Source: a virus
Lineage: Duplodnaviria; Heunggongvirae; Uroviricota; Caudoviricetes
IMG/VR virus record: IMGVR_UViG_3300029107_000039
DNA: 18,596 nucleotides
Direction: 5' to 3' (one strand)
Part shown: piece by piece, positions 97 through 15,406 of the stretch
Position numbering within the stretch: the stretch's first letter is position 1
How the letters are laid out: every line of letters starts with the position of its first letter
Notes under the pieces: model-generated
Databases searched by the model: none
What the model was told of the DNA's origin: nothing
Seen by the model: the letters and a program-made list of their open reading frames with translations, nothing else
Translations under genes and position numbers: made by a program

Positions 97-97
97 G

Positions 98-546
98 TTT
101 CTAAGCTGCCTGTACGGCAGTGAACCGTTCGCACATTTCCGCGTACCCGTTGATGTCTTTCTAAGCTGCCTGTACGGCAGTGAACACCAGGACCGCGTAA
201 TCACTAATGTGGAGTTTTTTTCTAAGCTGCCTGTACGGCAGTGAACCATATAACGGCGAAAAAATGGGGGCACTATCCTTTCTAAGCTGCCTGTACGGCA
301 GTGAACGCGTGACAACCGAGCAATTTTCAGCGCTTGAATTTCTAAGCTGCCTGTACGGCAGTGAACCTGGCTGCTGAATATTTCGCAGAAAATCCGGGTT
401 TCTAAGCTGCCTGTACGGCAGTGAACTCCGCCTGTGGTATCAGGTCGGTGCTGATGAGTTTCTAAGCTGCCTGTACGGCAGTGAACATATGTGCGTCAAA
501 GAGCAAAGTTTGATTGATTTTCTAAGCTGCCTGTACGGCAGTGAAC
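98..546 (-). CRISPR. Type I-F CRISPR array A: 8 repeats, 7 spacers, transcribed on the minus strand
   Basis: Eight exact copies of the 28-nt TTTCTAAGCTGCCTGTACGGCAGTGAAC on the + strand (reverse complement of GTTCACTGCCGTACAGGCAGCTTAGAAA) starting at 98, 158, 219, 279, 339, 399, 459, 519. Spacers of 32-33 nt at 126-157, 186-218, 247-278, 307-338, 367-398, 427-458, 487-518. Leader-like AT-rich sequence lies on the right. Confidence 0.95.
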
Positions 547-817
547 TGGAATAATAGCAGACTATCCGATTGATTTACTGTTAAAACTTACAAAATCGCA
601 GATTCAACCCCTTTTTCCAGACTTCAAAATAGCAATAAACAAAATCAATGAGTTACATTTCAACCTAAAAAAAGGGTCGATTTGTTACTTCTTCAATCTC
701 ATATTTTCTGCATAGTTTTTGATAAACAATTAAACAGAACACATACGGTCATAATCTCCGTCACGCAAACAGCATGTTCATTGCGTAACCAAACGAATCA
801 ATCTCTATAAATTCTTC
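547..817 (-). promoter_or_regulatory. Leader of array A (AT-rich, expected to contain the array promoter)
   Basis: Directly abuts the last repeat. AT-rich. Shares motifs with the sequence right of array B (CAAAAT ... CCCCTTTTTT ... CAATAAC), indicating homologous leaders; by-eye alignment only. Confidence 0.5.
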
Positions 818-846
818 TTGACCGTTTTACTCCAACTCCCTATAGT
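818..846 (+). promoter_or_regulatory. Candidate sigma70 promoter of the tRNA-Ser gene
   Basis: TTGACC (818-823), 17-nt spacer, TATAGT (841-846), followed by a GC-rich discriminator AGCGCCCCG typical of stringently controlled tRNA promoters. The tRNA 5' end is at 890. Confidence 0.45.
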
Positions 847-889
847 AGCGCCCCGTTGCCACCCATGAGGTCAGGCTGCAAAACAATTT

Positions 890-977
890 GGTGAGGTGTC
901 CGAGTGGCTGAAGGAGCACGCCTGGAAAGTGTGTATACGGCAACGTATCCGGGGTTCGAATCCCCGCCTCACCGCCA
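890..977 (+). tRNA. serW: tRNA-Ser (anticodon GGA), long variable arm, encoded CCA end
   Basis: GGTGAGGTGTCCGAGTGGCTGAAGGAGCACGCCTGGAAAGTG... with anticodon loop CCT-GGA-AAG, T-arm CGGGG-TTCGAAT-CCCCG, 3' ACCGCCA. 88 nt, class II tRNA. Symbol assigned from its position next to clpA in E. coli-like genomes. Confidence 0.9.
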
Positions 978-990
978 TATTTTAAGAAGA

Positions 991-1018
991 GCTCGTACGA
1001 AAGTACGGGCTTTTTTTT
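991..1018 (+). terminator. Rho-independent terminator of the tRNA
   Basis: GCTCGTAC-GAAA-GTACGGGC (8-bp stem with one G-U, GNRA-type tetraloop) followed by T8 at 1011-1018. Confidence 0.6.
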
Positions 1019-1044
1019 CGCATTAATGCGCCTTAAATAAAAAA

Positions 1045-1071
1045 CACGTACTTCCTCTTCGAAAGTACGTG
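1045..1071 (-). terminator. Rho-independent terminator of the fimbrial operon
   Basis: Hairpin CACGTACTT-cctcttcga-AAGTACGTG. On the minus strand it is followed by TTTTTTATTT (plus 1035-1044). Lies about 30 nt downstream of the adhesin-frame stop at 1099. Confidence 0.5.
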
Positions 1072-1098
1072 AAAATCAGTGGCTGATTACTATACCCA

Positions 1099-2119
1099 CT
1101 AGTCGTAGGATACGGCAAATATGGCTTTGCTTTGGACTTCTCCTGGCTGTAGTGCTTCCTCATTCACGCGGACATATTTCGCGGTAATCGGGAAGGTGTA
1201 CTGATTCTCAATGGCCGCCATTTTAGTTAGTTTGTTCATCAGAGTATCACCCAGCTTTAGCTGGTGTCGTTGCGTTACCATTATAAATCTGGAACCCAAC
1301 CCCCTTAGCACCATTAAGCGATGTGTTTTTCAGAATGGTTCCACTATCATCCCATTCACCGCGCGCAACTTTAAAAGTCACTGGATTAGTCGTGACGTTA
1401 TAAACACTGTCACAATTTAAAACCAGATCTATAGAACCTGATTTTGTGTTATTGGCAGATTGCATCTCACTTATCGTTGTTTCTGGCATTCTTATTTCGT
1501 AAGTCGGTTGCGAGAAACTACAGGTTGTAGGTTTGTGTTTTGTTATATTAACATTTAAATTCTGTTGATAATCAGCATCAGTTGGTAACTTGTTGCCCCA
1601 CCAACAAAGTAAATAAATGAAGGCATTACTATAGCAAAGTTTATCAAAGAAGTTATTTTCAAATGGAAAGACAACCGCAGGAGCATTCAAGATGAATGAA
1701 TTAGAATATACTGTTTGAACATTCGCATTACTGTCAGGCGATTTTATATATGAAGCTGTTAATGCTATGCTTTTATTATTAATAGTATCGTTAACTGAAT
1801 AAGTCTTCCTGCCTCCCGTATCAACAGGAAATCCATCTCCGACATCAAGATTAAACTTAATATAAATTGATTGATTGCTGTTTTGATTTTCTTTCATCTC
1901 TACAACATAATTATCTAATGTTTTAAGCACATTTACCTTATCTTGAGTCGAATTACATGTAAATTCTCCCGTCAGATTAGGAGAAAATGTAACCGTTGCA
2001 TTTCCCGCAGTTAAGTCTAAATTAACCCCCTGTATTGCAGTAGAATTTCCGTTGATAGTACATTTAGCCTGCCCCCAAAATGGCAAAGCCAGTAGAAACA
2101 AAAACCAATATTTCTTCAT
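1099..2119 (-). pseudogene. Fimbrial tip adhesin (two-domain, FimH-like pilin-domain C-terminus), split by an apparent +1 frameshift near 1247-1252
   Basis: ORF 1247-2140 starts with a signal peptide at the ATG at 2119 (MKKYWFLFLLALPFWGQA, AAGGA RBS) and ends ...GVGFQIYNGNATTPAKAG-TGA. Skipping one nucleotide at GCT GGG (T) GAT continues into ORF 1099-1314 as ...DTLMNKLTKMAAIENQYTFPITAKYVRVNEEALQPGEVQSKAIFAVSYD, which resembles a fimbrial pilin-domain C-terminus (FimH ...LTANYARTGGQVTAGNVQSIIGVTFVYQ, from memory). Could be a true pseudogene or a sequence error. Confidence 0.6.
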
Positions 2120-2130
2120 AAACAAATCCT

Positions 2131-4617
2131 TTAGCGACAAATATAAACTTTATTCTCATCAATAACGTTATCAAAGGTAATAGTGCAGAATTGTTCCTGC
2201 TGTTTATTAACCGAGACGCGAATCGCCGCGGGAACATCATTGGTGCGAATAAATATCCGACTTCCCTGTCCTACCAAGCCCACATTGTTGCCGCTTTCAT
2301 CTTCAACCTCATAACCAAACGGCAACGGAGAGCCATCAGGGCGTTGGGAGATGAAATACCAAGGCTTGCGTTTATCAGTCTCAAACTGCGTCATCACTAC
2401 CGCACCACGATAAGGAACGGTGTTTTTACGGTTACCCAGTAGCGCCACATCGCTTTTACTGTCGGCAATATCCAACATCAACGTATTTTCACGATACGGC
2501 GTCAGGTTGTCATAAATAGCGTAGCCTCTGCTATCCGTGGTCAGGTAACGATATCCCTGCACCGCTGCTCCCTCCAGTCCCGGCGCTTTGACGATGGCGA
2601 ACGTATCAGAAAGTCTGGGAGCCAGTGCCACCCCGTCCGACCACGCGACTAAACCGCCTTGAATATTACCGCTAATCTGTTGATATCTTTTCGACTGGCT
2701 ATAGCTGCCACCAATGGTCGCCAATGGCGCACGCCAGGTCAGGTTTCCACCTGCGGTTGTTTCGCTACCCTGTTGCTGATGGCTTAAGTTAGCCCCGTAG
2801 CTGAACTGATCGCGACTCCCCGCTACACCGCTGAGACTGGTATTATTCGACCGATAGCCGTCTTTATCAAAAGTGGTCGAGTTAGAAACAAATAAATCTC
2901 GTCGTTTTTCAGTGATTCCATCGCCCCACGAGAAGGGAATTGAGAAATATAAGTTAATGCGTCTATCTTCGCGGTTATCTTCATCGTAAGTCTGGCTAAC
3001 AGACAAGGTATAACTAAGGCGTTCCCAGGAGTTCGAATAGCTGAGTTGATAATCTTTCCCTGTCCCGCTGCGTTCCCAATAATCCCGCCATTGACCGCTG
3101 ACCGACAGATATCCCCAATCATCTGGTAATGACTGGTTTATATTTACAGAAAAGCTGTTCTTGCGACCAAAATCGTACTGATAATAGTCGGCAATGTCAT
3201 AAACAGAGTCATCTTCTCGATTATATCTATTCCTGTTATTTGCCCATACGTGATCGTTAAAAGTACGATAATCCCGAGAGGAGTAACGCCAGGCCGCCAG
3301 AGAAAATTGCGTCCCACTCTGTGAGAGATATTTGTTCCAGGCAATCTGATAACTTTGACCATTAAATACATCACCGTTATCTTGTTCACTGTGGGAATGG
3401 GTAAAATCAACCGATACAGCACCAATCGGTGTATTCCATCCCGTGCCGAGAACAAACGATGAGTAATTATCAGACAACTGCGTGCCAGCATAGAGAGTCA
3501 GCAAATTATTAAGGCCATACTGATAGCTTCCCTGAATAAAATCCGACTGATTGCTGGCTCCCTCAATACGACTACGTCCGGCAGCAAATTCATATTTCGA
3601 AACGCCCGGTTGCAACATATTTGGTACAGATGAATAAGGTACACGATAACGCGATACCGAACCGTCAGCTTCTTTAACAGTAACTTCCAGATCGGCACCA
3701 CCACCAGCAAGTTGCAAATCATCAATGGCGAATGGACCTGGTGGAACCTCCTTCTGGTAAATAACAAAACCATTTTGTTCTATAGTGACGAGTGCGTTGC
3801 TCTGGGCAATTCCTCGCACTATAGGAGTAAAATTCTGTTTAGAGTTCGGCAACATCTGCATATCGCGCCAGAGGCGTACCCCGCGAAAACGCACGGAGTC
3901 AAAAACATCAGAGCCGGTATACATTTCACCAGCACGCAATGTGCCAAGAATTTGTGGAATTCCGCGCTCCAGATATAACGTGTTACTCTTCCATTTACCG
4001 CTGCTCTGGTCACTTTTCGTATAATTGGCATTTGAATGCAACTGCCAGCCCAGAAGATTCAAACCACTGTTCAGATTTAAATAGCTACTTTTATTATCTC
4101 CTCCGTGCTTATAATTACTGTAATACTGACTGGCATAATAAGATGTATATAATGCGTTAATCCCGCGATCCCATGCCTCAGGCGGGACATATCCGCGTTC
4201 ATACTCAACGACATAGGCTTGGGGTACACTTAACTTCAGGTTAAAATGCCCAATATCATAGTCAACGCTGCCGCCCTGTACCGCTTCCCGAAGTGGTACA
4301 CATTCTACGCTTTTATCGATATTAATGCCTTCTGTGAGGATACCTATTTGCTTTAACTGCTCCCAGGATAAACATGTTGCATCCGGATCATCTTTAATAT
4401 CGACATTATAATGTCCGCGCCACTGATTATTCAGGTATACATCCATATCATAGATACCGGGCATCGGCTTATTACTATCGATATGATAGTCAGAAATTTT
4501 TTCCCCATTTAATCCGCCAATCATAAAATGGGTGTCAAATGTTTCATCTTCCGCCCATGCAGACGAAGTTGCCAACACCGACAGGATAGCCAGCGTAATA
4601 GAATTAAGTTTAGACAT
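2131..4617 (-). CDS. Fimbrial outer-membrane usher protein
   Basis: About 828 aa from the ATG at 4617 (MSKLNSITLAILSVLATSSAWA signal peptide; CAGGGA RBS). Length and composition are typical of chaperone-usher ushers, with a C-terminal Cys pair (CTITFDNVIDENKVYICR). Sits between the chaperone and adhesin genes. Confidence 0.9.
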   Translation of the reverse strand: MSKLNSITLAILSVLATSSAWAEDETFDTHFMIGGLNGEKISDYHIDSNKPMPGIYDMDVYLNNQWRGHYNVDIKDDPDATCLSWEQLKQIGILTEGINIDKSVECVPLREAVQGGSVDYDIGHFNLKLSVPQAYVVEYERGYVPPEAWDRGINALYTSYYASQYYSNYKHGGDNKSSYLNLNSGLNLLGWQLHSNANYTKSDQSSGKWKSNTLYLERGIPQILGTLRAGEMYTGSDVFDSVRFRGVRLWRDMQMLPNSKQNFTPIVRGIAQSNALVTIEQNGFVIYQKEVPPGPFAIDDLQLAGGGADLEVTVKEADGSVSRYRVPYSSVPNMLQPGVSKYEFAAGRSRIEGASNQSDFIQGSYQYGLNNLLTLYAGTQLSDNYSSFVLGTGWNTPIGAVSVDFTHSHSEQDNGDVFNGQSYQIAWNKYLSQSGTQFSLAAWRYSSRDYRTFNDHVWANNRNRYNREDDSVYDIADYYQYDFGRKNSFSVNINQSLPDDWGYLSVSGQWRDYWERSGTGKDYQLSYSNSWERLSYTLSVSQTYDEDNREDRRINLYFSIPFSWGDGITEKRRDLFVSNSTTFDKDGYRSNNTSLSGVAGSRDQFSYGANLSHQQQGSETTAGGNLTWRAPLATIGGSYSQSKRYQQISGNIQGGLVAWSDGVALAPRLSDTFAIVKAPGLEGAAVQGYRYLTTDSRGYAIYDNLTPYRENTLMLDIADSKSDVALLGNRKNTVPYRGAVVMTQFETDKRKPWYFISQRPDGSPLPFGYEVEDESGNNVGLVGQGSRIFIRTNDVPAAIRVSVNKQQEQFCTITFDNVIDENKVYICR

Positions 4618-4631
4618 AATCAATCCCTGAT

Positions 4632-5312: not shown

Positions 5313-5333
5313 GGCAACACTCCTTGTTGTAAA

Positions 5334-5352: not shown

Positions 5353-5364
5353 ATAAGCAAAGTA

Positions 5365-6323: not shown

Positions 6324-6878
6324 TCAAAACCAGGGAATAGTTGCTGTTGCGCTTAATCCATAACTACTGAATTCCCCTTTCACCGGTTCAGTGAGCAAAT
6401 CACCATGACGGATAAACAGCTTGAACTGTTGCTGACTCGATAAACTCTTCATATTGAGAAAGGGTAAATCGGTCCGCCGTTCAGTTTGCGTCGCCAGTCG
6501 CTCAATTGCCTGTTCTTTAGTGAGCCAGCCCTTTTTTACTGAACGCCTTAACAGACGCAGGGGGTTACTTTTAACCTGCACACGGCTTACCACTCGCCAG
6601 CCTTTTATTTCAGGAATAGGAGTGACAGGTGAACATTGGCAATAGTCCGTAAGTCCTTTACGCCACGTTGAGGCTTCAAGCGCCTGCAATGCCGGGGCGC
6701 TGCCGTGTAAGCGTAAACGCGCTCCCGGCGTAACATTCACGTCCGGGAAACTCACGCCGATATCACCTTGCCCTCTTGCGCCTAATGCCCGGTGCAATTT
6801 GGCAAATAACGCTGCCATCAACATTTCACTCGAAAATTCAGGATCTGGCAGAACGCGGATCTCAAGGTAGTGCTCCAT
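6324..6878 (-). CDS. cas6f: Csy4 / Cas6f crRNA endoribonuclease
   Basis: 184 aa from the ATG at 6878 (AAGGAG RBS): MEHYLEIRVLPDPEF...AKLHRALG (conserved His)...FIRHG...YGLSATATIPWF. Closely resembles Pseudomonas Csy4 as recalled. The ORF track extends to 6920 using an upstream alternative start. Confidence 0.9.
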   Translation of the reverse strand: MEHYLEIRVLPDPEFSSEMLMAALFAKLHRALGARGQGDIGVSFPDVNVTPGARLRLHGSAPALQALEASTWRKGLTDYCQCSPVTPIPEIKGWRVVSRVQVKSNPLRLLRRSVKKGWLTKEQAIERLATQTERRTDLPFLNMKSLSSQQQFKLFIRHGDLLTEPVKGEFSSYGLSATATIPWF

Positions 6879-6888
6879 TGGCAGCTCC

Positions 6889-7890
6889 TTATTCCGCTTT
6901 CTCACCAAAGACACCGCCACGGATCAGCACTGCCATCACGTAGTGCTGTTGATCAACGTCTGGTTTCATCCCTTTAGTCACCCAATTGTCCAGTAAGGTA
7001 TAAAAATCGAGTTTTTCTTTCGGTTGGCGGCAGGCCACACCGCGACTGGTTACAGAACCGTAAGGTTCCACGGCGATAGCCCCCAACTCATCAACCTTCG
7101 GATGCCAGGTGTCAATAGTACGTAAAGCGTTGCCAATTTTTTGGGAGTGAATACCGGCAATGCCTGCAACCTGGTACAACACGCGACTTTTGCTACTGTT
7201 GCTGTCGAGCACCAGTTCCTGTGATGGGAAGACTTCTTGCCCGGCACCGAGGCGAACCTGCGCTTCAACGGTAAGCATCACCCACTCTTTTCCGCTTAAT
7301 CCTTGTTCAATTATTGTCGCCAGTTCTGTGACGCTACTCTGGCCTTGATCAAATTGACGCAAGGAGAAGTCATGACTGTTAAAAGTCCAGGACGAATCAT
7401 TAGCAGTAACTTTCACCTGGATCTGCTCAGCACCAATGCGGTTGCGCCACAAAAAACGACCATTTGCCAGATTCAGCGCATAGCGAAGCGCCAGCTCTTT
7501 AAAACCATGCTCGCTGATATAGCCGTCAATAACGTCGGAAAGCGCCTCCTGATAGGCCATATCATTACATACTGAAGGTGAAGATAAATTACCCAGCACT
7601 CGCAGCGTAAACACCACTTTTAGCGTATCAGCATCTACCGGAAGCGAGGCTACATCTACCCGCTGCAAGTTGGCTTTTTGGATTTCAGCATCCAGTTTGG
7701 TGGGGTCACTGGTAATCGTGTTTTTCAGGCGATTAGAAATGGTTCCGCGAACCGCTTTTTCCTGAATCTCAATGGGTTGCCATTCATTTCCTTGCCAGTT
7801 ACCTGCGTACATCGCCGCGTCAGACGTTGCCAGTTTGCGTTCAAATGCCAGTACCGACGCCGTTTTTATTGCTACAGGGGCCTTTGCCAT
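6889..7890 (-). CDS. cas7f: Csy3 / Cas7f Cascade backbone subunit
   Basis: 333 aa from the ATG at 7890 (AAGGAC RBS): [20 protein letters not shown]...[10 protein letters not shown]...LIRGGVFGE. Csy3-like. Stop at 6889, 11 nt before the csy4 start. Confidence 0.9.
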
Positions 7891-7900
7891 AATTATGTCC

Positions 7901-8824
7901 TTATTCTGAATCGTCATCTTCATTAGTAGTAGGGTCGTCAACGAGTGGTATTGCCGAGCAATAGTAGCCAGTGTCCGTCGTACGATAGCGCCACATCAGC
8001 GGTTGCAAATCAGTAATGCGATGTAATCCACGCCATTCGCCAATGCCATAAACCGCTTCGGCAAAGGCAAATGGCGTCACGGTATCGCGCGCATTTTCAA
8101 CTTCACCGGGAGCGTAAACAGGAGATATGCGTTGGTAACCGCACATTAACGGTACCAGGAAACCAGGCATTGGCTTCGGCTGGTATACCCATTGTGCGCT
8201 GTTGTCTTCTGCCGGAGATTCGGCCTGATATTTAATCGTGGCAAAATCAAGCCAGGCATCAAGCAACGATATGTCGGGATGTTGTTGGTGATGTTCAGCC
8301 AGCCATTCGCTGCGGTCGTAAAGCGCGTAACCTGGCATTAAACGCCAGATGATTTTACGCAGTTGCTTTTCATCTTCAGGCGCATGAAAAAGCTGAGGAT
8401 CGCGCATGTCAACAATGCTGCCGCCCGCCAGTTTGTGGCTCTGGCAGAGCATTTTCAGATGGTCACAAAGGGCTTTTCTACCGTATTCACCATTGGTAAT
8501 TTCGCCATTACATTCAATCAGCAGAGAGACCGTCAGGTGCATACGCCCCTCTTCATTAAATGAGGCGGTTTTACCTTCTCTGGTTAGTGGATTACGGGTG
8601 AGAGCGAACTGAAAATCGCGCCCGGAGCTGTACGCCTGAATATGTTGTTCATGGCTAACGACCGCGCAACCGTCAAAACTTACGCCAAATTCATCCACCA
8701 CTTTGCGAGAAAGCGCATGAACATAGCCGAGAAAATGGGTCATCGACGGGAATCCCCAGGTCAACCCGGAGACAGCGTTGGCGTTTTCGATACGTACATG
8801 GGGTAACAAGAGCAGATAACTCAT
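7901..8824 (-). CDS. cas5f: Csy2 / Cas5f Cascade subunit
   Basis: 307 aa: [27 protein letters not shown]...NPLTREGK...LHLTVSLL...GEWRGLHRI. Csy2-like. Its ATG overlaps the csy1 stop (ATGA at 8821-8824). Confidence 0.9.
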
Positions 8825-10128
8825 TTCAGCGCCTCCTGCAAAACGGCTTCCATTTCACGCATCCGTTGAGCGAACAGGGACTGACTGCGCCACTCTTTTT
8901 GCTCGATAGCACCTACATCGAAACTGGCTTTTTTCAGGCGATAGTTCAGCCAGCGCGCGAAATCCTCGGCCACCTTACCCTGCCAGTCGTTTTTTTCACG
9001 CTCCAGTTTGAAAGCCTCATCTGACAGGCTTCGCCACGGATCCAGCCACAGTTGCTGGTGGCGCGGTAAGGCTGGTGATTGCGCGGACCATCCCTGCCAT
9101 TTTTCTTGTTGAAAAGAGGATGCCTGCATAAACAGCAAATCTATCAACTCATCAATATATTTCGCCCGTGTGGTACGGATATGAACATTATTTTTGTCAA
9201 CTTTCAGAAGATAGGTCATACGGGCGATAATGCCCGAGGCCGCCCGATTGAAATCGCCACGTAAGGCAAAAATACTGCGCATGTTTTGTGGTGCGCGATC
9301 CAGCGCCGCCCAGGTGGGCGGCATTGATGGCAACAGCCAGACACGGCCAACTCTGGCACTGTTTAGCAGGGAGATATTCTGTTGATTTCCACCTCCATAA
9401 TGCATCTCTGCAAGATTCGGGAAACGAATATCTGGCTGTGAGTGCCATTTACCTGCTTTGTGCGCATCGCGAATAGCTTTTGATTCCTCGCTAAAGCGCA
9501 CGGCAGTTAGCTTTTCATACATCACCTGTGCCAGCGAACTGGAAAACAGCGGGCAGAGCAGATGATAGCCATCATCGACAGGGAAATAGATTTGCTTCGA
9601 AAGTTTATGTGCTTTTATCCACTCCGAAGCATATGCTTCACTAAAGCATTCAACCCATTGTTTTAATTGTTCATCATCCAACGCAAAGGCATTTAATGAT
9701 TGATAATCACCACGTTTTAAGCTGGCGAGTAATGAATCACCGTTGGCTTCCGTTAGCAGTAGTTTTGCAACATCAAAAACGGCTGCATTGCCTTCAGCAT
9801 CCTCTTTAATAATTGCCAGTGATGCTGTATTTAAATATCCCTCGCTGACGAATTTCTCCAAATAACGCCCATATGCTTTGGAGTCACCATTACTATATTT
9901 TGCCCCGTGGGAGATTATCCTTATAGAACGAACACGTTTCGCCGCATCCGTTAACCAGTTACGTGGCAGGTAGCGTGCTTCGAGTTCCTGTCGCTCCAGA
10001 GCGATAACGCTGGCGTCCTCGCCCTGTTCCAACCGCTTTGCTGCTTCTTTTTCAAAGGCTTCGATCTTGGGTTGCCTTCGCGAAGCGATGTAGTCAGTGA
10101 TAAATTGTATTAGCGCCGTTTTTTCCAT
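8821..10128 (-). CDS. cas8f: Csy1 / Cas8f large Cascade subunit
   Basis: 435 aa. ATG at 10128 with AAGGAG RBS. Csy1-like motifs (KQIYFPV, GGGNQQNISLLNS, WLLPSMPP, QQLWLDPWR). First gene after the 324-nt gap following cas2-3. Confidence 0.9.
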   Translation of the reverse strand: MEKTALIQFITDYIASRRQPKIEAFEKEAAKRLEQGEDASVIALERQELEARYLPRNWLTDAAKRVRSIRIISHGAKYSNGDSKAYGRYLEKFVSEGYLNTASLAIIKEDAEGNAAVFDVAKLLLTEANGDSLLASLKRGDYQSLNAFALDDEQLKQWVECFSEAYASEWIKAHKLSKQIYFPVDDGYHLLCPLFSSSLAQVMYEKLTAVRFSEESKAIRDAHKAGKWHSQPDIRFPNLAEMHYGGGNQQNISLLNSARVGRVWLLPSMPPTWAALDRAPQNMRSIFALRGDFNRAASGIIARMTYLLKVDKNNVHIRTTRAKYIDELIDLLFMQASSFQQEKWQGWSAQSPALPRHQQLWLDPWRSLSDEAFKLEREKNDWQGKVAEDFARWLNYRLKKASFDVGAIEQKEWRSQSLFAQRMREMEAVLQEALK

Positions 10129-10195
10129 CTCGGCTCCTTTCGTTAATCCATCAAATTGAAGTTGCTCCCTGACTTCACTGAAAAATCTCCGTAGC

Positions 10196-10258
10196 CTAAC
10201 CAGACTTCAGTACAACGACACACACAGCAAAAGGGGCAACGCCCGTGGTGATAATCAT
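10196..10258 (-). other. Candidate 20-codon hydrophobic mini-ORF (MIITTGVAPFAVCVVVLKSG) with SD, immediately downstream of the crRNA-like target site
   Basis: Minus strand AGGTGA-actatcc-ATG ATT ATC ACC ACG GGC GTT GCC CCT TTT GCT GTG TGT GTC GTT GTA CTG AAG TCT GGT TAG. Below the 60-aa ORF-track threshold. Could be chance. Confidence 0.2.
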
Positions 10259-10268
10259 GGATAGTTCA

Positions 10269-10281
10269 CCTAGAGGTATCT
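10269..10281. promoter_or_regulatory. Predicted Cascade binding site: CC PAM plus 11-nt seed match to the spacer of the crRNA-like element
   Basis: Plus strand CC-TAGAGGTATCT at 10269-10281 equals PAM plus spacer positions 1-11 of the mini-array spacer (10400-10410). The match begins exactly at spacer position 1 and is lost from position 12 onward. Confidence 0.6.
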
Positions 10282-10288
10282 ACGTTTT

Positions 10289-10316
10289 AATCTAGTTAAA
10301 CCCATGAAATAACCAA
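10289..10316 (-). promoter_or_regulatory. Candidate minus-strand promoter whose predicted start abuts the Cascade target site (may drive the mini-ORF and/or csy1-4)
   Basis: Minus strand TTGGTT (plus 10311-10316), 16-nt spacer, TAGATT (plus 10289-10294); predicted TSS near 10281. Hexamers are weak; by-eye call only. Confidence 0.2.
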
Positions 10317-10342
10317 GAGTGATATTACCATGCATAAAATAT

Positions 10343-10371
10343 TTGCAACACAATGGTTTAATAACTAACAT
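10343..10371 (+). promoter_or_regulatory. Candidate plus-strand promoter for the crRNA-like RNA
   Basis: TTGCAA (10343-10348), 17-nt spacer, TAACAT (10366-10371); the predicted start falls inside the first pseudo-repeat, just before its hairpin. By-eye call only. Confidence 0.25.
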
Positions 10372-10452
10372 TCACGCACTGCCATCGGCAGCTTAGAAAT
10401 AGAGGTATCTCCGGATACGGACTTGTAAACTGCCGTACAGGCAGCTAACCCA
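10371..10452 (+). ncRNA. crRNA-like mini-array (pseudo-repeat, 25-nt spacer, pseudo-repeat), inverted relative to the cas genes; candidate Cre-type regulatory RNA
   Basis: Pseudo-repeat 1 (10371-10399) TTCAC-gca-CTGCC-atc-GGCAG-CTTAGAAA keeps the Cas6f hairpin stem and an exact 8-nt 5' handle. Spacer-like TAGAGGTATCTCCGGATACGGACTT (10400-10424). Pseudo-repeat 2 (10425-10452) GTAAA-CTGCCGTACAGGCAG-CTAACCCA has a perfect hairpin with degenerate flanks and ends at the cas2-3 stop codon. Confidence 0.65.
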
Positions 10453-13400
10453 TCACAGGTTGCGAAACACACCTAACCAGGGGTGATAACGCCAGTCATC
10501 GACCGCATCTTCTTCACTGGCCGGTACTCTCACTTCAGCAAACATTTCTCCAACACGCTGTATTTCACAACTTTGCTTATCAGCTAAATTCAACAAAACG
10601 TGTTGGTAATCCATCACGCCCCAGCAAGCGACGCCGCTGGCGCATCTCACCTCTTCTCGCCTGAAATTCCCTTGCGCTTTACGCTCGTTGTCGCCCGTGC
10701 GGGAATAGAAACGCGCTTCGCTTTCTTCATCATCCATATGCAGAAAAAACACTGCCTCCGGCAAAGGGGAATAACGAAATGGCGTCTGGCGCTGCATCCA
10801 GCCGTTCCAGCTTAGCGGTGCACGCCACCATTGCGCCGCCACCACATGTTTGCTTTTACTGCTCATCAATTCAGCGGATAAACGACTATGCTCAAGCTCC
10901 GCCAGTTTGTTGTCATTATTGGCAGACAGGATCCGCGGCAAGGCGTTAATCGTCCGGTAGTCCGCGATCGGAATCAGTTCGCAAATATCGTGGCTATTAA
11001 GCAAGTGTTCTTTTGTTTCGAAACCAGGCTTACAAAATGCGGGGGCTTTTTTCTGCAATGATTTGATATTACTACGCAAAATAACCAGATTCTCACTAGT
11101 CGGCACATTTCTACGGTGGCGCTGAATACGTCCGGCAAATTGAATTATCGAACGCATGGAGCTTGGTTCGATAATTCCCCAGTCCGCATCCCAGTCACGC
11201 CCCACCTCTATAACCGATGTCCCCAACACCACAAACAGATGGTGCGATTCCGGACGGTTATGTAAGGCTTCAGCAATATCCTCGTTGTTCCAGAAATCGA
11301 GTTCGTTATGGCGGGTAAAAGCGCGGTCCAGGCGCTTCTCAATATCTGAACGTACTGCCAGTGGATGTCGGGAGTGGTAAACACAATAATGAATGCAGAC
11401 ATCTTCTGGTGATGGAATGGCGATCAGGGCTTTGGTCACTGCGACCAGTGGATTGATATTCGCGAAGCGCACCAGGCCCAGCGAAACGGTTTTACCGCTT
11501 TCTTGCTGCTGGCGATGTGCCTGATGCAACTTCAGCATTTGCGCATGTACCGTCTGAGCCACGCTTTCGGTAACATCCTGAATCGCGTTTGATGCAGATG
11601 AAATAGAAGCAATACGTCCGAAATGCAGTCGTTCTTTTTCGGCCAACATTAACGCTCGTCGCGCAACAAACTTTTTGTGCGTCTCACGAAAAGTAGCGCC
11701 ATCGCCAATTTGTATGGCGTCGGCATCTTTTTCATCAAACCAGGCACAGCAAATATTGACGGGTCTGCCGTTCGTACCGCATGACGACTGCCACATTTTA
11801 CGCCCGGCAAGATAAGCCGCGAACAGCGCCTGAATCAGCCCTGGCGGCAACGTCGCGGAAGAAAGTAATACCCGCGTTCCCAACATTCCGGCCCAATTCA
11901 TCAGACGACATACTGCATGAAGATCGGCAATATCAAAGTCGTCAGGTTCATCGAGCACTAAATCGCTGGTTAACAAACGCAACATCGAAGGAAGCTGTTT
12001 TCCGCCTCGCACACCTTCGGTCGCAGAAATAAGATGATCAATGGTTGCTACCAGAATCGGTGCGCTTACTAACGCCTTAAGTTTGCTGTCATCCTTCAAC
12101 CATTTTTCCAGCGCCCCGGTATGCAGACTACCTTCATATTTAACAAACTGTTGCTCCTCTGCCAGCGATTCTTGCGAAGCACTTCCGCAATCATTGTCTG
12201 TTTTTTCCTGCTGCCACAGTTGCTTAACTGCCGCCGAACCAATCAGTACCGCCAGCTCATCCTCACCCAGTCCAAGCCGACTGCGCAGAGCATCGCCGGT
12301 TTGCAAAGTCAGCGTGCGCAATCCCAGCGCGACGGTAAAACGGCACCCTTCCCGCTCATCGGTAAGCGCATACATAATGCGGGCGTTAGCAAAGGTTTTA
12401 CCGCACCCCGTCGAGGCCATATTGACACCGAAAAAACCGTCTTCCCGGCTTCGCTCACGTAACGCACGTGCCACATCCCAGGCTTTATCCTGCCAACGAT
12501 ATTTCGCGTCTGTGGCCCGTTGGCTAAAGCCTTTATGTCGGGCAATTGCCGGAAGCGATGCACGTGTGTGCATCAGTTGCCGCCCAAGTAGATACGCATG
12601 ATGCGCGACGCCGACCAGATGCTCATCTACCCGTTGTTTGAGCGTGCCGCTCTGCCGATCGCTATTTGCCCAGACGATATAATTCGGGTCTTGCCATTTT
12701 TGCTGCGCGTCGTTAGATGAATAGTAGTGATCGGCAAGCATCAGGCAAAAACGCGCCATATGTAACGGAAACAGTTGCTCCATCTGCCCCCATTCCTTTA
12801 GGCCGATCGCGTTACACGCCCTACGGGCAATCTGACGCGCTTTTTCTCGCCAGCTCGCGCTTTGAAGCGGCGTTCCTGACGGAAATTGCCAGACTTGCTC
12901 GAAATCCTGTTGTGACCAGTCATTCTTACGGTGGTTAACGGCATTCCAGTCAGCATTGAGTTGTTTCTCCAGCCAACTATCACAGCCTTTACATGATTGT
13001 TCCGGTTGTGGCGAAAGATTCTCCGGCATTCGATGATGGGAAAGGATCAACCAGCCTACCGTTTTGGCGAGTGGTTGCAGCGAACTGAATGGACTATTTG
13101 AAAAATGAGGCGTGTCTTTTTGCAGGCACTCAAGGATCGCGGTTTCATCATCTGCCGTTAATTTCCCAAGTTTTTCCAGCCACACTTCGTCTGGCTGTTC
13201 ACCGACAAAAGCCTGAAAAAGCCGCAGCGAAATCCACTCATGCCGATAAGGCTGATAACTGCGGGCATTCTTTTGGGTCAGGCTTTGCTGAAAGCTGCGT
13301 CCTGCTTTACCAAAATCATGAAATAACCCAGCGATAGCCGCCAGCAGCGCAATACTTTCCGCGCACTGCCAGCGATTTTCTTCTTTTTTCACCAGGCTGG

Positions 13401-13686
13401 TTTGCGTTGTTCGATTTGTGGGAACGCGTCCCTGAGCATTAAAACGACGAATATTGCCGACAATCCACATCAACTCCGTTTGCCCATTCTTCTTCAGCCA
13501 GTGACAAGCCACTGCGGTATTTCGCCGGGCAGTTTTGCGCAGTAAACGGCGAAGTGTATTAACCCCTTCCAGAGTAATCACCGTTTGCCATGCGGCGTCA
13601 CCAGTGCGTTCGGCAAATTGATCAATAATACGGCAGCTCTCCACTCGAGCATTTTTTGTGCAGCGCGAGATAATCAGGACGTTCAT
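10453..13686 (-). CDS. cas3: Cas2-Cas3 fusion (type I-F signature nuclease-helicase)
   Basis: 1077 aa. N-terminal Cas2-like region, HD nuclease motif (LFHDFGKAG), helicase Walker A (STGCGKT) and DExD box (LVLDEPDD). Its ATG overlaps the cas1 stop (ATGA at 13683-13686). Confidence 0.95.
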   Translation of the reverse strand: MNVLIISRCTKNARVESCRIIDQFAERTGDAAWQTVITLEGVNTLRRLLRKTARRNTAVACHWLKKNGQTELMWIVGNIRRFNAQGRVPTNRTTQTSLVKKEENRWQCAESIALLAAIAGLFHDFGKAGRSFQQSLTQKNARSYQPYRHEWISLRLFQAFVGEQPDEVWLEKLGKLTADDETAILECLQKDTPHFSNSPFSSLQPLAKTVGWLILSHHRMPENLSPQPEQSCKGCDSWLEKQLNADWNAVNHRKNDWSQQDFEQVWQFPSGTPLQSASWREKARQIARRACNAIGLKEWGQMEQLFPLHMARFCLMLADHYYSSNDAQQKWQDPNYIVWANSDRQSGTLKQRVDEHLVGVAHHAYLLGRQLMHTRASLPAIARHKGFSQRATDAKYRWQDKAWDVARALRERSREDGFFGVNMASTGCGKTFANARIMYALTDEREGCRFTVALGLRTLTLQTGDALRSRLGLGEDELAVLIGSAAVKQLWQQEKTDNDCGSASQESLAEEQQFVKYEGSLHTGALEKWLKDDSKLKALVSAPILVATIDHLISATEGVRGGKQLPSMLRLLTSDLVLDEPDDFDIADLHAVCRLMNWAGMLGTRVLLSSATLPPGLIQALFAAYLAGRKMWQSSCGTNGRPVNICCAWFDEKDADAIQIGDGATFRETHKKFVARRALMLAEKERLHFGRIASISSASNAIQDVTESVAQTVHAQMLKLHQAHRQQQESGKTVSLGLVRFANINPLVAVTKALIAIPSPEDVCIHYCVYHSRHPLAVRSDIEKRLDRAFTRHNELDFWNNEDIAEALHNRPESHHLFVVLGTSVIEVGRDWDADWGIIEPSSMRSIIQFAGRIQRHRRNVPTSENLVILRSNIKSLQKKAPAFCKPGFETKEHLLNSHDICELIPIADYRTINALPRILSANNDNKLAELEHSRLSAELMSSKSKHVVAAQWWRAPLSWNGWMQRQTPFRYSPLPEAVFFLHMDDEESEARFYSRTGDNERKAQGNFRREEVRCASGVACWGVMDYQHVLLNLADKQSCEIQRVGEMFAEVRVPASEEDAVDDWRYHPWLGVFRNL

Positions 13687-14666
13687 TGGTCAGCCTTAGC
13701 CAGGGCCTGAGCCGTTTCCTGCAGAGAGGTGATCATGACATCCAGCGCATCCGCTTGTTGAAAGATATTGATGCAGCGTTGACGAAACTCCTGAGCATCT
13801 TCTCCCGCCATTGCAGCGATAAATGCTTGTGGCATAACAAGGGCATCTTTAATCAGATCGGCAAGGTCAAAAACGAGACCACCGCGACGGGTTTTACCGT
13901 GCATTACTGCTAAACCGTGCGGGATCCCGGTTACCCACGCCGCCACTGCCGCCAGGCCATACGCCAGATAATTACCCTGATCGAGGAAGCGGTTGGCCAT
14001 ATCAACTCCGCCACCCCGTTTTGCACGAGTAAAGTCGCCGTAGCCCACGGATTGACTCACCATTTTGTAGAGTGCTTTGGTCAATTTCGCCTCTACGAGC
14101 ATAAGCTGCGTATGGCTTTCTGCCATGTCTATTTCTTCACGAGTGCGATTTAGCAGAGTCTGCAGCGCACTGGCATCAGGTTGAAAGGCGTGTTCACGCT
14201 GCATTTTCGCGCTGGTCCAGTACTTATCAATATGTGTCAGACGAATTAACTGAAAACGTTTCGCGGCGGCAAGGCGTTTGTCTTCAACAAACCAAAAAGA
14301 AACCCACTGCTGAAGATATTCAGTAGGACGATATTCGCTTTGCGGACTGAGCCAGGAGACATCAACATCAACTTCATTTGCCGAATACAGCGGCGTGCCA
14401 TCCGTACCACAAAAACCCACCATCACTCCAGCATGGGCAAATTCACGCATCGCCGCCTGGGTAACGGACGTTCCCATCCCCAACATCAACGCCGTGGTAT
14501 TCGCAATGGGGATATTCCAGTAATACGACTCCTTGCCTTCACTGGTGACATACTCCACTCGCCCACCATTCACCTGCACCCGGCATTTTTCCAGATAATA
14601 AATATTGGCACGCCTGGAGTGGAGAATGGTTTTGAGATCAGAAGGAGTAAGGTAATTTGAAGACAT
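13683..14666 (-). CDS. cas1: Cas1 integrase (type I-F)
   Basis: About 327 aa from the ATG at 14666 (AGGA RBS): MSSNYLTPSDLKTILHSRRANIYYL...NIPIANTTALMLGMGTSVTQAAM...HGKTRRGGLVFDLADLIKD. Strongly Cas1-like. The ORF track begins at an upstream GTG at 14672. Confidence 0.95.
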   Translation of the reverse strand: MSSNYLTPSDLKTILHSRRANIYYLEKCRVQVNGGRVEYVTSEGKESYYWNIPIANTTALMLGMGTSVTQAAMREFAHAGVMVGFCGTDGTPLYSANEVDVDVSWLSPQSEYRPTEYLQQWVSFWFVEDKRLAAAKRFQLIRLTHIDKYWTSAKMQREHAFQPDASALQTLLNRTREEIDMAESHTQLMLVEAKLTKALYKMVSQSVGYGDFTRAKRGGGVDMANRFLDQGNYLAYGLAAVAAWVTGIPHGLAVMHGKTRRGGLVFDLADLIKDALVMPQAFIAAMAGEDAQEFRQRCINIFQQADALDVMITSLQETAQALAKADQ

Positions 14667-14837
14667 AAACACATCCTGTGATTATTTTTATTTGAAGGAG
14701 TTAGGATTAGTACAGCATTGATTTCTGTGTGAGAAATTGATTCTCGTCGCAATTATCACAATTGTTATTGTGTGTCACAGCTAATGGTTCGGAGTTGAGA
14801 GCGCCATAACGCAGCTAAATTTCTGCCATCATCGTAT

Positions 14838-15406
14838 TTGTGAAACTGCCTGTACGGCAGTGAACTGAGGTGCTTTTGACGGCCGTCCATGCCTTTGCTT
14901 TCTAAGCTGCCTGTACGGCAGTGAACCAGAACTGGATCGACAATGAATTCGGGGATCTTTTCTAAGCTGCCTGTACGGCAGTGAACTACGACCTGTTAAA
15001 AACAGACAGTGACGGCATTTTCTAAGCTGCCTGTACGGCAGTGAACTTTTTTGAGGTTGATTATGAGTGAGCCAGCCTTTTCTAAGCTGCCTGTACGGCA
15101 GTGAACGTGGTTGGCATGGCGCTCCCTGAGTCGAAAGATTTCTAAGCTGCCTGTACGGCAGTGAACAGGCAGAAGAAGAAATGGATGTAACTCACAATTT
15201 TCTAAGCTGCCTGTACGGCAGTGAACAATAACGCCCGCGACGGCGACCGGTAAAACGTTTTCTAAGCTGCCTGTACGGCAGTGAACTAGCAACAGGTGCG
15301 GAAAGTGGCGCAATACCCTTTCTAAGCTGCCTGTACGGCAGTGAACGTGTTGTTAGCCGCGCCATGTGCTTTCCTCCGTTTCTAAGCTGCCTGTACGGCA
15401 GTGAAC
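14838..15406 (-). CRISPR. Type I-F CRISPR array B: 10 repeats including a degenerate leader-distal repeat, 9 spacers; upstream of cas1
   Basis: Repeats start at 14838 (degenerate: TTGTGAAA instead of TTTCTAAG), 14899, 14959, 15019, 15079, 15139, 15199, 15259, 15319, 15379. Spacers of 32-33 nt at 14866-14898, 14927-14958, 14987-15018, 15047-15078, 15107-15138, 15167-15198, 15227-15258, 15287-15318, 15347-15378. Leader on the right. Confidence 0.95.

What the first reader, a model, noticed from the sequence alone, without database searches (positions are those of the whole stretch)
98..15406. Two arrays with identical repeats and homologous leaders; only array B has a degenerate terminal repeat; 16 spacers available for target prediction
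Arrays A (7 spacers) and B (9 spacers) are both transcribed on the minus strand, with leaders on their right sides sharing a CCCCTTTTTT-containing motif. The leader-distal repeat of B is degenerate (4 mismatches in the first 8 positions) whereas the distal repeat of A is exact and abuts a terminator, suggesting different histories at the array ends. Spacer content is the quickest route to the biology (phage, plasmid, or self-targets such as the adjacent fimbrial island), and I could not search it by eye.
Basis: seen in the sequence. Interest (0 to 1): 0.45.

Follow-up and report, generated by a model that had tools for sequence, protein, structure and literature searches.

The report
Ordinary I-F CRISPR locus, IS-interrupted array
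This is the well-known Escherichia type I-F CRISPR-Cas locus with its two flanking arrays aimed at temperate phages; the only unusual point is that array A does not end naturally but is cut by an IS200-type insertion sequence that landed in a phage-derived, terminator-like eighth spacer.

Summary
There are two minus-strand arrays of the identical 28-nt type I-F repeat (8 and 10 repeats, 7 and 9 spacers). The distal repeat of B has 4 mismatches. The leaders are homologous (79/154 identical in register, z=6.5). The locus is the canonical Escherichia I-F1 system between clpA and infA, 96-98% identical to Escherichia marmotae relatives, with all six cas genes intact.

One interpretation needs correcting. 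Array A's "exact distal repeat abutting a terminator" is not an array end. Positions 1-71 are the left end of an IS200-family element. Positions 72-97 are a truncated eighth spacer: a 24/26 match, with CC PAM, to an intrinsic terminator in an E. coli prophage. Four other spacers target that same prophage. Relatives all end array A with a degenerate repeat, as array B does.

Nine of 17 spacers (16 complete plus the truncated one) have protospacers, all in phages or prophages and all with a 5'-CC PAM. No spacer matches anything in the window, including the fimbrial island. No spacer is shared with 18 related arrays.

The shared CCCCTTTTTT motif is one arm of a conserved inverted repeat flanking an IHF-like site, which is the known I-F integration-leader layout. 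The locus is ordinary, with a neat IS twist.

The parts
1..71 (-). Left end (about nt 1-71) of an IS200-family (IS200/IS605) insertion sequence. tnpA lies just beyond the window start, co-directional with array A. The stem-loop at 37-57 corresponds to the IS200 left-end terminator hairpin.
   Evidence: BLAST finds 1,405 places in 1,192 E. coli genomes, on chromosomes and plasmids, next to annotated IS200/IS605 tnpA. The common boundary is ...GGGATAACAAT, with unrelated flanks in other copies. Hairpin fold. The IS200 left-end description (707 bp, terminator hairpin at nt 12-34) is from PMC4513863.
72..97 (-). Truncated eighth spacer of array A (A8, 26 of about 32 nt): CGAAGCCAGCGCCCGCTGGCTTTTTT. 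It forms a terminator-like hairpin plus T-run on the transcribed strand.
   Evidence: It is absent from all relatives at this position. It matches 24/26, with a 5'-CC PAM, the terminator just after an endonuclease gene in the STEC379 prophage (L027 38629-38654). Terminator scan. RNA fold -14.6 kcal/mol.
98..546 (-). CRISPR array A (infA-side array of the I-F locus): 8 exact repeats and 7 complete spacers. A1 is 487-518 (leader-proximal) and A7 is 126-157.
   Evidence: Protospacers with a CC PAM were found for A1, A2, A4, A5 and A7.
547..700 (-). Leader A. It contains the proximal inverted-repeat arm AAAAAGGGG (608-616), an IHF-consensus site AATCAATGAGTTA (643-655, plus strand) and the distal arm ACCCTTTTTTT (667-677).
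   Evidence: Alignment with leader B and with E. coli and E. marmotae leaders. In-register identity statistics. The I-F leader layout (inverted repeat plus two IHF sites) is from bioRxiv 10.1101/2023.05.26.542337.
890..977 (+). tRNA-Ser(GGA), serW: the conserved landmark between array A's leader and the cas side of the locus.
   Evidence: ARAGORN. It holds the same position in E. coli I-F loci.
6324..14666 (-). Intact type I-F cas operon: cas1f 13683-14666, cas2/3f 10453-13686, csy1 8821-10128, csy2 7901-8824, csy3 6889-7890, cas6f 6324-6878.
   Evidence: All six exceed the NCBIfam I-F equivalog cut-offs. Lengths are identical to relatives at 327, 1077, 435, 307, 333 and 184 aa.
14838..15406 (-). 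CRISPR array B (clpA-side array): 10 repeats and 9 spacers. B1 is 15347-15378 and B9 is 14866-14898. The terminal repeat 14838-14865 is degenerate only in its last 8 transcribed nt (GTTCACTGCCGTACAGGCAG|TTTCACAA).
   Evidence: The same degenerate terminal repeat occurs in all 16 E. marmotae-like relatives (some with GTC instead of GTT at the start), and near-identical, with one extra mismatch, in E. coli Rb-50. The hairpin is preserved. B2, B3 and B8 have protospacers with a CC PAM.
15407..15563 (-). Leader B. It contains the proximal arm AAAAAAGGGG (15468-15477), an IHF-consensus site TATCAATAACTTA (15503-15515, plus strand) and the distal arm ACCCTATTTTT (15527-15537). A promoter-like site lies at 15528-15501. 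The leader is bounded upstream by the clpA terminator at 15597-15564.

Best explanation
The window holds the canonical Escherichia type I-F1 CRISPR-Cas locus (the CRISPR-3/CRISPR-4 pair flanking cas1-cas2/3-csy1-csy2-csy3-cas6f between clpA and infA). It comes from an Escherichia marmotae-like (cryptic clade V) strain.

Inferred mechanism, from what is established for type I-F systems:
- Each array is transcribed on the minus strand from its own leader.
- Cas6f cuts each repeat after the CUGCC-GUACA-GGCAG hairpin. This gives 60-nt crRNAs made of an 8-nt CUUAGAAA handle, the 32-nt spacer and a 20-nt hairpin.
- Csy complexes then find protospacers preceded by 5'-CC and recruit Cas2/3.
- New spacers enter at the leader-proximal repeat. 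The two leaders share the same in-register modules (inverted-repeat arms at about -65 and -125 with an IHF site at about -105). This matches the DNA that Cas1-Cas2/3 and IHF fold during I-F integration.

Shown here:
- Array B ends with the ancestral degenerate repeat. It is degenerate only in the 8-nt handle that no crRNA uses, so B9 can still be processed.
- Array A's natural end is not in the window. An IS200-family element inserted right after the T-run of a terminator-like eighth spacer. That spacer had been captured from an intrinsic terminator of a temperate phage which four other spacers also target.

Inferred consequences:
- A8 is destroyed.
- Transcription from leader A probably stops at the A8 hairpin and the IS200 left-end terminator.
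- A1-A7 are unaffected.
- The rest of array A (the 6-nt remnant of A8, older spacers and the degenerate terminal repeat) probably lies beyond the roughly 0.7-kb IS, outside the window.

The recorded immunity is against temperate phages: a lambdoid and P1-like ead/Ea22 gene, a P2-like capsid scaffold gene, a myovirus-type prophage integrated at ttcA, and an uncultured tailed phage.
For: System identity:
- The repeat matches Rfam CRISPR-DR4 on the minus strand.
- All six Cas proteins pass the I-F equivalog models.
- Gene order is infA-array-serW-(fimbrial operon)-cas6f...cas1-array-clpA, as in E. coli Rb-50, A22 and TCM_B_2.
- The cas operon is 96-98% identical to relatives that include CP025979.1, an E. 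marmotae genome. It is 89-92% identical to E. coli.
- The literature describes I-F1 flanked by CRISPR-3/-4 between clpA and infA, including in clade V.

Leaders: plus the I-F leader architecture.

Protospacers: 9 of 17 spacers have protospacers, and 9 of 9 have a 5'-CC.
- A1 32/32.
- A2 31/32, A5 30/32, A7 31/32, B8 31/32 and A8 24/26, all in one prophage.
- A4 31/32.
- B2 and B3 32/32, on the same strand 1,067 bp apart in one IMG/VR contig.

IS insertion:
-.
- At 6 independent sites examined, the window included, the left end abuts the T-run of an intrinsic terminator, with tnpA co-directional.
- Relatives carry a degenerate terminal repeat plus the infA terminator instead.
- The same A7-repeat-A8-IS junction occurs in a human-gut metagenome contig that is 99.96% identical over 5.35 kb.
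Against: - Nothing to the left of position 1 could be retrieved. It is therefore not shown that array A continues beyond the IS; an IS-associated deletion or rearrangement could have removed it.
- No transcription, processing or interference data exist for this strain. The promoters are only consensus-level (one weak hit in leader B, none in leader A on the minus strand).
- Eight spacers (A3, A6, B1, B4-B7, B9) have no match. B7 and B9 were not scanned in IMG/VR.
- The A8 match has 2 mismatches, one at protospacer position 1, and terminator hairpins are somewhat stereotyped sequences.
- The metagenome contig may come from the same strain lineage or the same data, so it is weak as independent confirmation.
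- The species name rests on one accession-to-paper link plus identity values. Both genome-contig scans returned nothing.
Confidence: 0.85

Rival explanations
1. One reading: array A ends naturally with an exact repeat followed by a native chromosomal terminator, so the two arrays simply have different kinds of terminal repeat.
For: The repeat at 98-125 is exact, and a hairpin plus T-run follows directly.
Against: In 12 related loci, array A ends with a degenerate repeat followed by a conserved, entirely different flank leading to the infA terminator. None contains the 72-97 sequence. The 26 nt match a prophage terminator with a CC PAM. Positions 1-71 are a multi-copy IS end.
Confidence: 0.03
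2. The junction at 71/72 marks an IS200-associated deletion or rearrangement, or an assembly join at a repeated IS. On this view the distal part of array A no longer exists next to the IS, and the locus is not simply 'array + inserted IS + rest of array'.
For: The window stops inside the IS. The only retrievable contig with this junction also ends inside the IS, as expected when assemblers break at multi-copy elements. Nothing beyond could be fetched.
Against: IS200-family elements move by precise single-strand excision and insertion, without flank rearrangement (own knowledge of the IS200/IS605 'peel and paste' mechanism). The insertion site fits the element's preference seen at 5 other sites, directly after a terminator T-run and with tnpA co-directional. 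The spacer fragment is 26 nt, shorter than a full spacer, as a simple insertion into a spacer predicts.
Confidence: 0.15
3. The 26 nt at 72-97 were carried in with the IS as transduced flank from a previous insertion site at a terminator, rather than being a CRISPR spacer.
For: Other copies of this IS sit next to terminators, so a terminator-like flank could in principle be co-mobilised.
Against: The left-end boundary is identical in all copies examined, and the flanks differ at every site. The 26-mer occurs in no IS copy found. It starts exactly at a repeat end. It matches, with the I-F CC PAM, a site in the very prophage that A2, A5, A7 and B8 also target.
Confidence: 0.03

Closest known systems
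[quoted passage not shown]
   Same: Same chromosomal site, with clpS-clpA on one side and serW and infA on the other. Same six cas genes in the same order, same 28-nt repeat, 32-nt spacers and CC PAM. Leaders are homologous, and array B carries the lineage's usual degenerate terminal repeat. Nucleotide identity is 96-98% to E. marmotae-like loci and 89-92% to E. coli.
   Different: The spacer content is entirely strain-specific, with no spacer shared with 18 related arrays. Array A is interrupted by an IS200-family element. A Yeh-like fimbrial operon sits between serW and cas6f; this is shared with the E. marmotae lineage and E. coli Rb-50 but absent from E. coli A22 and TCM_B_2.
Pseudomonas aeruginosa PA14 type I-F system (Csy complex, Cas6f/Csy4, Cas1-Cas2/3 plus IHF integration complex)
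   Same: Same protein families. The repeat differs at only 2 of 28 positions from the PA14 repeat as I recall it. The Cas6f hairpin is the same. The leader has an inverted repeat flanking an IHF site plus a second, repeat-proximal AT-rich IHF-like region within about 150 bp, as described for the I-F integration complex.
   Different: The genus and chromosomal context differ. The leader motifs here are inferred from sequence conservation only. Binding by IHF or Cas2 was not tested, and the exact PA14 motif positions were not compared.
IS200 of Salmonella/Escherichia (IS200/IS605 family, tnpA-only, about 707 bp)
   Same: The window shows about 71 nt of left end, with a stem-loop at roughly nt 15-35 where IS200 has its terminator hairpin (nt 12-34, PMC4513863). 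The full copies in E. coli are about 0.7 kb with a single 144-aa tnpA. There are no terminal inverted repeats.
   Different: Only the left end lies in the window, so tnpA and the right end were not seen for this copy. The strong association of this element's left end with intrinsic-terminator T-runs was observed here at 6 sites and not checked against the literature.

Membership tests
Type I-F (I-F1) CRISPR-Cas | Cas1f integrase | tested here: met
   TIGR03637, 539.8 bits against a cut-off of 150.
Type I-F (I-F1) CRISPR-Cas | Cas2-Cas3 fusion (Cas2/3f) | tested here: met
   TIGR02562, 1218.7 bits, aligned over residues 1-1074 of 1077. The equal-length (1077-aa) homologues in relatives (cas region 97-99% identical in DNA) carry PF21384 Cas3_I-F_Cas2.
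Type I-F (I-F1) CRISPR-Cas | Csy1 (Cas8f), Csy2 (Cas5f) and Csy3 (Cas7f) surveillance-complex subunits | tested here: met
   TIGR02564, TIGR02565 and TIGR02566 score 366.6, 317.3 and 443.8 bits, all above their cut-offs.
Type I-F (I-F1) CRISPR-Cas | Cas6f (Csy4) endoribonuclease and a 28-nt repeat with its 5-bp stem and 5-nt loop hairpin | tested here: met
   TIGR02563, 182.6 bits. Rfam CRISPR-DR4, 50.1 bits, for 17 repeats. The hairpin is predicted at -8.6 kcal/mol.
Type I-F (I-F1) CRISPR-Cas | 5'-CC PAM next to protospacers (in spacer-sense orientation) | tested here: met
   9 of 9 protospacers of this window have it. So do 41 of 49 protospacers of related arrays.
Type I-F (I-F1) CRISPR-Cas | Leader with an inverted repeat and IHF sites that direct integration at the first repeat | tested here: inconclusive
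   The sequence motifs are present and in register in both leaders and in all relatives. Protein binding and integration cannot be tested here.
Type I-F (I-F1) CRISPR-Cas | crRNA production and CC-dependent interference or priming | not testable with these tools
   Needs RNA-seq and plasmid or phage challenge experiments.
Escherichia CRISPR-3/CRISPR-4 locus | Location between clpA and infA, with arrays on both sides of the cas-F genes | tested here: met
   clpS and clpA are in the window. The layout matches E. coli loci in which infA follows array A. infA itself lies outside the window.
IS200/IS605 family insertion sequence | Multi-copy element with subterminal hairpins, no terminal inverted repeats, and an adjacent Y1 transposase gene tnpA | tested here: met
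   There are 1,405 places in E. coli genomes. tnpA (IS200/IS605 family) is annotated about 50 nt from the matched end at 7 of the 9 copies fetched (not at the SA186 plasmid copy, L035; a truncated pseudogene at L024). Hairpins. For the window copy, tnpA is outside the window, though contig L026 extends 50 nt further, towards tnpA.
IS200/IS605 family insertion sequence | Insertion without target-site duplication, 3' of a short specific target | tested here: inconclusive
   The left end always follows a T-run (TTTT, TTTTA, ATTA) at 8 sites. The right-end junction of the window copy was not available.

The most novel reading that the evidence does not exclude
A spacer captured from a phage intrinsic terminator may act as a liability inside a CRISPR array. 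First, it prematurely terminates pre-crRNA transcription. Second, it creates a preferred landing site for an IS200-family element that homes to terminator T-runs. If so, terminator-derived spacers would be a recurrent route to array truncation and loss of older immune memory. If general, IS200-type insertions in arrays should be enriched at terminator-like spacers.
Probability: 0.12. Interest if true: 0.5.

Novelty: already known. Interest (0 to 1): 0.22.

Why it matters
The result is mostly housekeeping. It files the locus as the described Escherichia I-F1 system and supplies its target list of temperate lambdoid, P1-like, P2-like and myovirus-type prophages, with no self-targeting.

Two points have modest value. 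First, an 'exact terminal repeat' in a lineage whose arrays normally end in a degenerate repeat is a good flag that the array is interrupted rather than complete. That matters for spacer-order and strain-typing analyses. Second, this single case links a terminator-derived spacer to an IS200-family insertion. It suggests a testable and cheap genome-wide question about how arrays decay.

Nothing here changes the understanding of CRISPR mechanism.

Tried and rejected
- **Self-targeting.** All 17 spacers were searched against the whole window at 8 or fewer mismatches. Only the spacers themselves were found, so the fimbrial-island idea is rejected.
- **Spacer sharing.** No spacer matched (3 or fewer mismatches) any of 6 array-B relatives, 9 array-A relatives or 3 E. 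coli loci. Spacer-order phylogeny is not possible with these data.
- **Sequence beyond the IS.** Exact-protein look-ups with the usher, adhesin and chaperone all returned only a 5.4-kb contig that ends inside the IS. Exact scans for the 26-mer in genome contigs, viral contigs and metagenome contigs found nothing.
- **Naming the species from GTDB representatives.** A 42-nt cas1-upstream pattern found nothing. The assignment therefore rests on CP025979.1 and the identity values.
- **IMG/VR scans** (with N at every sixth base). A3, A6, B1, B4, B5 and B6 found nothing, and B1 also found nothing in JGI metagenomes.
- **Local alignment of the leaders.** A stringent gapped local alignment gave only a modest score (26 against a mean of 17.7; 23 of 2,000 shuffles reached it). 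The in-register ungapped comparison is the appropriate and far stronger test.
- **Priming.** I considered it for B2 and B3, which are adjacent spacers matching the same strand about 1 kb apart. The pattern is suggestive only and is not claimed.

Full report
**1. Observation check**

The repeat finder and a direct read show two arrays of the same 28-nt unit. On the plus strand the unit is TTTCTAAGCTGCCTGTACGGCAGTGAAC; transcribed, it is GTTCACTGCCGTACAGGCAGCTTAGAAA.
- Array A has 8 exact copies at 98-546 with 7 spacers.
- Array B has 10 copies at 14838-15406 with 9 spacers.
- The lowest-coordinate copy of B (14838-14865) differs at plus-strand positions 3, 4, 5 and 8.
- All 17 exact repeats match Rfam CRISPR-DR4 on the minus strand at 50.1 bits, against a gathering score of 35.

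**2. What the locus is**

The six minus-strand ORFs between the arrays pass the NCBIfam type I-F equivalog models:

| Gene | Coordinates | Model | Bits |
|---|---|---|---|
| cas1f | 13683-14666 | TIGR03637 | 539.8 |
| cas2/3f | 10453-13686 | TIGR02562 | 1218.7 |
| csy1 | 8821-10128 | TIGR02564 | 366.6 |
| csy2 | 7901-8824 | TIGR02565 | 317.3 |
| csy3 | 6889-7890 | TIGR02566 | 443.8 |
| cas6f | 6324-6878 | TIGR02563 | 182.6 |

Context:
- clpA (15631-17922) and clpS lie upstream of array B.
- tRNA-Ser(GGA) at 890-977 lies between array A's leader and a Yeh-like chaperone-usher fimbrial operon at 1247-5907.
- The order infA - array - serW - (fimbrial operon) - cas6f...cas1f - array - clpA is found in E. 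coli Rb-50. E. coli A22 and TCM_B_2 have the same order without the fimbrial operon.

Origin:
- The window is 88-90% identical to E. coli overall.
- Its cas operon is 96-98% identical to ten loci recovered by exact Cas6f look-up.
- One of those loci is CP025979.1, a genome released with the Escherichia marmotae characterisation paper.
- The window therefore comes from an E. marmotae-like strain.

**3. Orientation and leaders**

Four independent lines agree on minus-strand transcription:
- the strand of the Rfam matches;
- the degenerate repeat at the low-coordinate end of B, and of both arrays in relatives;
- the conserved AT-rich sequence on the high-coordinate side;
- a 5'-CC before every protospacer when spacers are read on the minus strand (see section 5).

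- Anchored at the first repeat and without gaps, 547-700 and 15407-15560 are identical at 79 of 154 positions.
- 10,000 dinucleotide shuffles give 43.6 +/- 5.4, with a maximum of 64.
- Shifting the register by one base drops identity to 57 or 48.

Identity is concentrated in modules that are also invariant across 16 distinct A and B leaders from E. coli and E. marmotae-like strains:
- ACCCTtTTTTT at about -131 to -121;
- GTAAsTyATTGAT at about -112 to -100, whose complement fits the IHF consensus WATCAANNNNTTR in both leaders;
- shorter blocks nearer the repeat.

The first and third modules are inverted copies of each other. An inverted repeat bound by the Cas2 dimer, flanking a distal IHF site, with a proximal IHF site next to the repeat, is the leader architecture described for the type I-F integration complex (bioRxiv 10.1101/2023.05.26.542337). 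The match here is by sequence pattern only.

**4. The ends of the arrays**

Array B:
- Its degenerate terminal repeat, GTTCACTGCCGTACAGGCAG|TTTCACAA, is present in all 16 E. marmotae-like relatives examined (some with GTC instead of GTT at the start). It occurs near-identical, with one extra mismatch, in E. coli Rb-50. The other two E. coli loci have a different degenerate version. It is therefore an old, fixed array end.
- The degeneracy is confined to the 8 nt that would form the 5' handle of a following crRNA.
- The Cas6f hairpin is intact, so B9 should still be processed (inference).

- In all 12 relatives with an array A, it ends in a degenerate repeat: ...GTTTTTAAA in the E. marmotae-like loci, and ...GTTTTCAAA or ...GTCTTCAAA in E. 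coli.
- That repeat is followed by a conserved flank running into the infA terminator.
- The window instead has an exact repeat followed by unrelated sequence.

Positions 1-71:
- Positions 1 to about 82 match 1,405 places in 1,192 E. coli genomes, on chromosomes and plasmids, with up to 9 copies per genome.
- In seven of the nine copies fetched, the match lies about 50 nt upstream of an annotated IS200/IS605-family tnpA; the other two are a degraded plasmid copy and one with no tnpA annotated.
- Comparing copies puts the element's boundary at ...GGGATAACAAT, which is window position 71. Beyond it the flanks are unrelated.
- The full copies are about 0.7 kb. The stem-loop at 37-57 sits where IS200 has its left-end terminator hairpin (PMC4513863).

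Positions 72-97:
- This leaves 26 nt between the repeat and the IS: CGAAGCCAGCGCCCGCTGGCTTTTTT on the transcribed strand.
- They match 24/26, preceded by CC, a site 8 nt after the stop codon of an endonuclease gene in a prophage of E. coli STEC379 (L027 38629-38654). That site is the gene's intrinsic terminator.
- The same prophage carries protospacers for A2, A5, A7 and B8.

Insertion-site preference:
- At six independent sites, the IS left end abuts the T-run of an intrinsic-terminator hairpin, with tnpA co-directional.
- The sites are the window and the yfeX, hrpA, yehD, reiD and trhN terminators. The position within spacer A8 fits the element's apparent preference.

Support and limit:
- A human-gut metagenome contig that is 99.96% identical to window 1-5352 carries the same junction and runs 50 nt further into the IS before ending.
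- I could not retrieve anything beyond the IS. That the array continues on the other side is an inference.

**5. Spacer targets**

All 16 spacers plus the fragment were compared with INPHARED phages, PLSDB plasmids and 5,426 complete E. coli genomes. Most were also scanned in IMG/VR.

| Spacer | Window coordinates | Match | Target |
|---|---|---|---|
| A1 | 487-518 | 32/32 | ead/Ea22-like gene of lambdoid phages (ev099; HK629 at 31/32), of phage vB_EcoM-Ro157c2YLVW, of large (about 70-100 kb) non-mobilizable plasmids such as pO111_2 (P1-like phage-plasmids, by my reading), and of prophages in up to about 490 E. coli genomes |
| A2 | 427-458 | 31/32 | exodeoxyribonuclease VIII gene of the STEC379 prophage |
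| A4 | 307-338 | 31/32 | GPO capsid-scaffold gene of a P2-like prophage |
| A5 | 247-278 | 30/32 | tail-fibre gene of the STEC379 prophage |
| A7 | 126-157 | 31/32 | gene of unknown function in the STEC379 prophage |
| A8 (fragment) | 72-97 | 24/26 | intrinsic terminator after an endonuclease gene in the STEC379 prophage |
| B2 | 15287-15318 | 32/32 | tape-measure gene of IMG/VR contig UViG_3300011584_000016 |
| B3 | 15227-15258 | 32/32 | baseplate-wedge gene of the same contig, same strand, 1,067 bp from B2 |
| B8 | 14927-14958 | 31/32 | terminase small-subunit gene of the STEC379 prophage |

- All nine protospacers are preceded by CC. The chance expectation is about 1/16 each.
- A3, A6, B1, B4-B7 and B9 have no match.
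- No spacer matches anything else in the window at 8 or fewer mismatches. There is no self-targeting of the fimbrial island or the cas genes.
- No spacer is shared with any of 18 related arrays. This agrees with the published observation that CRISPR-3/-4 spacers are mostly strain-unique.
- The relatives nevertheless target the same phages with different spacers. Of their 246 unique spacers, 49 hit the same three phage loci, and 41 of those 49 have CC.

**6. Mechanism**

Shown: the parts list, the homologies, the protospacers and PAMs, and the IS junction.

Inferred from established type I-F biology:
- Leader-driven minus-strand transcription.
- Cas6f cleavage after the hairpin, giving 60-nt crRNAs.
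- Csy-complex recognition of CC-flanked targets and recruitment of Cas2/3.
- Polarised integration at the leader-proximal repeat, guided by the shared leader modules. This makes A1 and B1 the newest spacers.

Inferred for this strain:
- A8 is inactivated, because it has no downstream repeat hairpin.
- Transcripts from leader A stop at the A8 hairpin with its T-run (-14.6 kcal/mol) and at the IS200 left-end terminator.
- A1-A7 are unaffected.
- Any distal spacers are cut off from the leader promoter.

**7. Comparison, novelty and verdict**

This is the already-described Escherichia I-F1 locus, in a strain of a lineage where it has been noted before. All defining features that can be tested by sequence are met. 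IS elements inside CRISPR arrays are also known in general.

The only mildly new observation is the combination seen at 71/72. A spacer copied from a phage terminator later became the landing site of a terminator-seeking IS200-type element. As a single case it is an anecdote. Whether it reflects a general route of array decay is a cheap survey question.

Interest is low. The main value of this stage is the correction that the array-A 'end' is an IS junction, plus the target list.

Noticed in passing
window 1247-2119 (-): The fimbrial tip-adhesin gene is 290 aa, against 339-342 aa in relatives. A 1-nt insertion near its 3' end (CCAGCTAAAG versus CC-GTTAAAG) shifts the frame and removes the C-terminus, so it is probably a pseudogene. 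The N-terminal part is only 56% identical to the adhesin of relative L014, which points to receptor-binding-domain diversification. Metagenome contig L026 has the same 290-aa form.
   Followed up: partly
window 1247-5907 (-); L004, L013-L022: A Yeh-like chaperone-usher fimbrial operon (yehD-like subunit, chaperone, usher, adhesin) sits between serW and cas6f. It is there in this window, in all E. marmotae-like relatives and in E. coli Rb-50, but not in E. coli A22 or TCM_B_2. In several relatives (L013, L016, L018, L019, L020) the chaperone or usher is split or missing, so the operon is decaying in parts of the lineage.
   Followed up: partly
L019 about 14074-16555: In one relative, a phage-type integrase and a DUF3987 gene follow the adhesin where serW, leader A, array A and infA normally lie. 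This suggests an integrative element at or near the serW tRNA gene that displaces or separates array A.
   Followed up: no
L023, L025, L030, L031, L034 (IS left-end flanks); window 72-97: This IS200 variant's left end abuts the T-run of an intrinsic terminator (yfeX, hrpA, yehD, reiD, trhN and the A8 spacer), with tnpA co-directional with the terminated gene. Two further copies follow TTTT with weaker hairpins. This may be a real target preference. It was not quantified beyond 8 sites.
   Followed up: partly
L027 (E. coli STEC379 prophage at ttcA, NZ_CP091024.1 about 2688400-2732165); L029; L028: These three phage loci are recurrent targets of Escherichia I-F arrays. Of 246 unique spacers from 18 related arrays, 49 match them (36, 8 and 5 respectively) at 4 or fewer mismatches, and 41 of the 49 have a CC PAM, yet none of these spacers is shared with the window. 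This looks like independent, repeated immunisation against the same temperate phages.
   Followed up: partly
window 15227-15318 (spacers B3, B2); L029 5059-5090 and 6126-6157: The adjacent spacers B2 and B3 match the same strand of one viral contig 1,067 bp apart, both perfectly. That pattern is compatible with primed acquisition.
   Followed up: no
L005 11953-12939 (E. coli A22): cas1f is annotated as frameshifted in E. coli A22, although both of its arrays are long (9 and 19 spacers). The strain may have recently lost the ability to acquire spacers.
   Followed up: no
L017, array A (between spacers 7 and 9): One inter-repeat interval is only 9 nt, so two repeats nearly abut. This may be a deletion scar inside the array of a metagenome-derived relative.
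   Followed up: no
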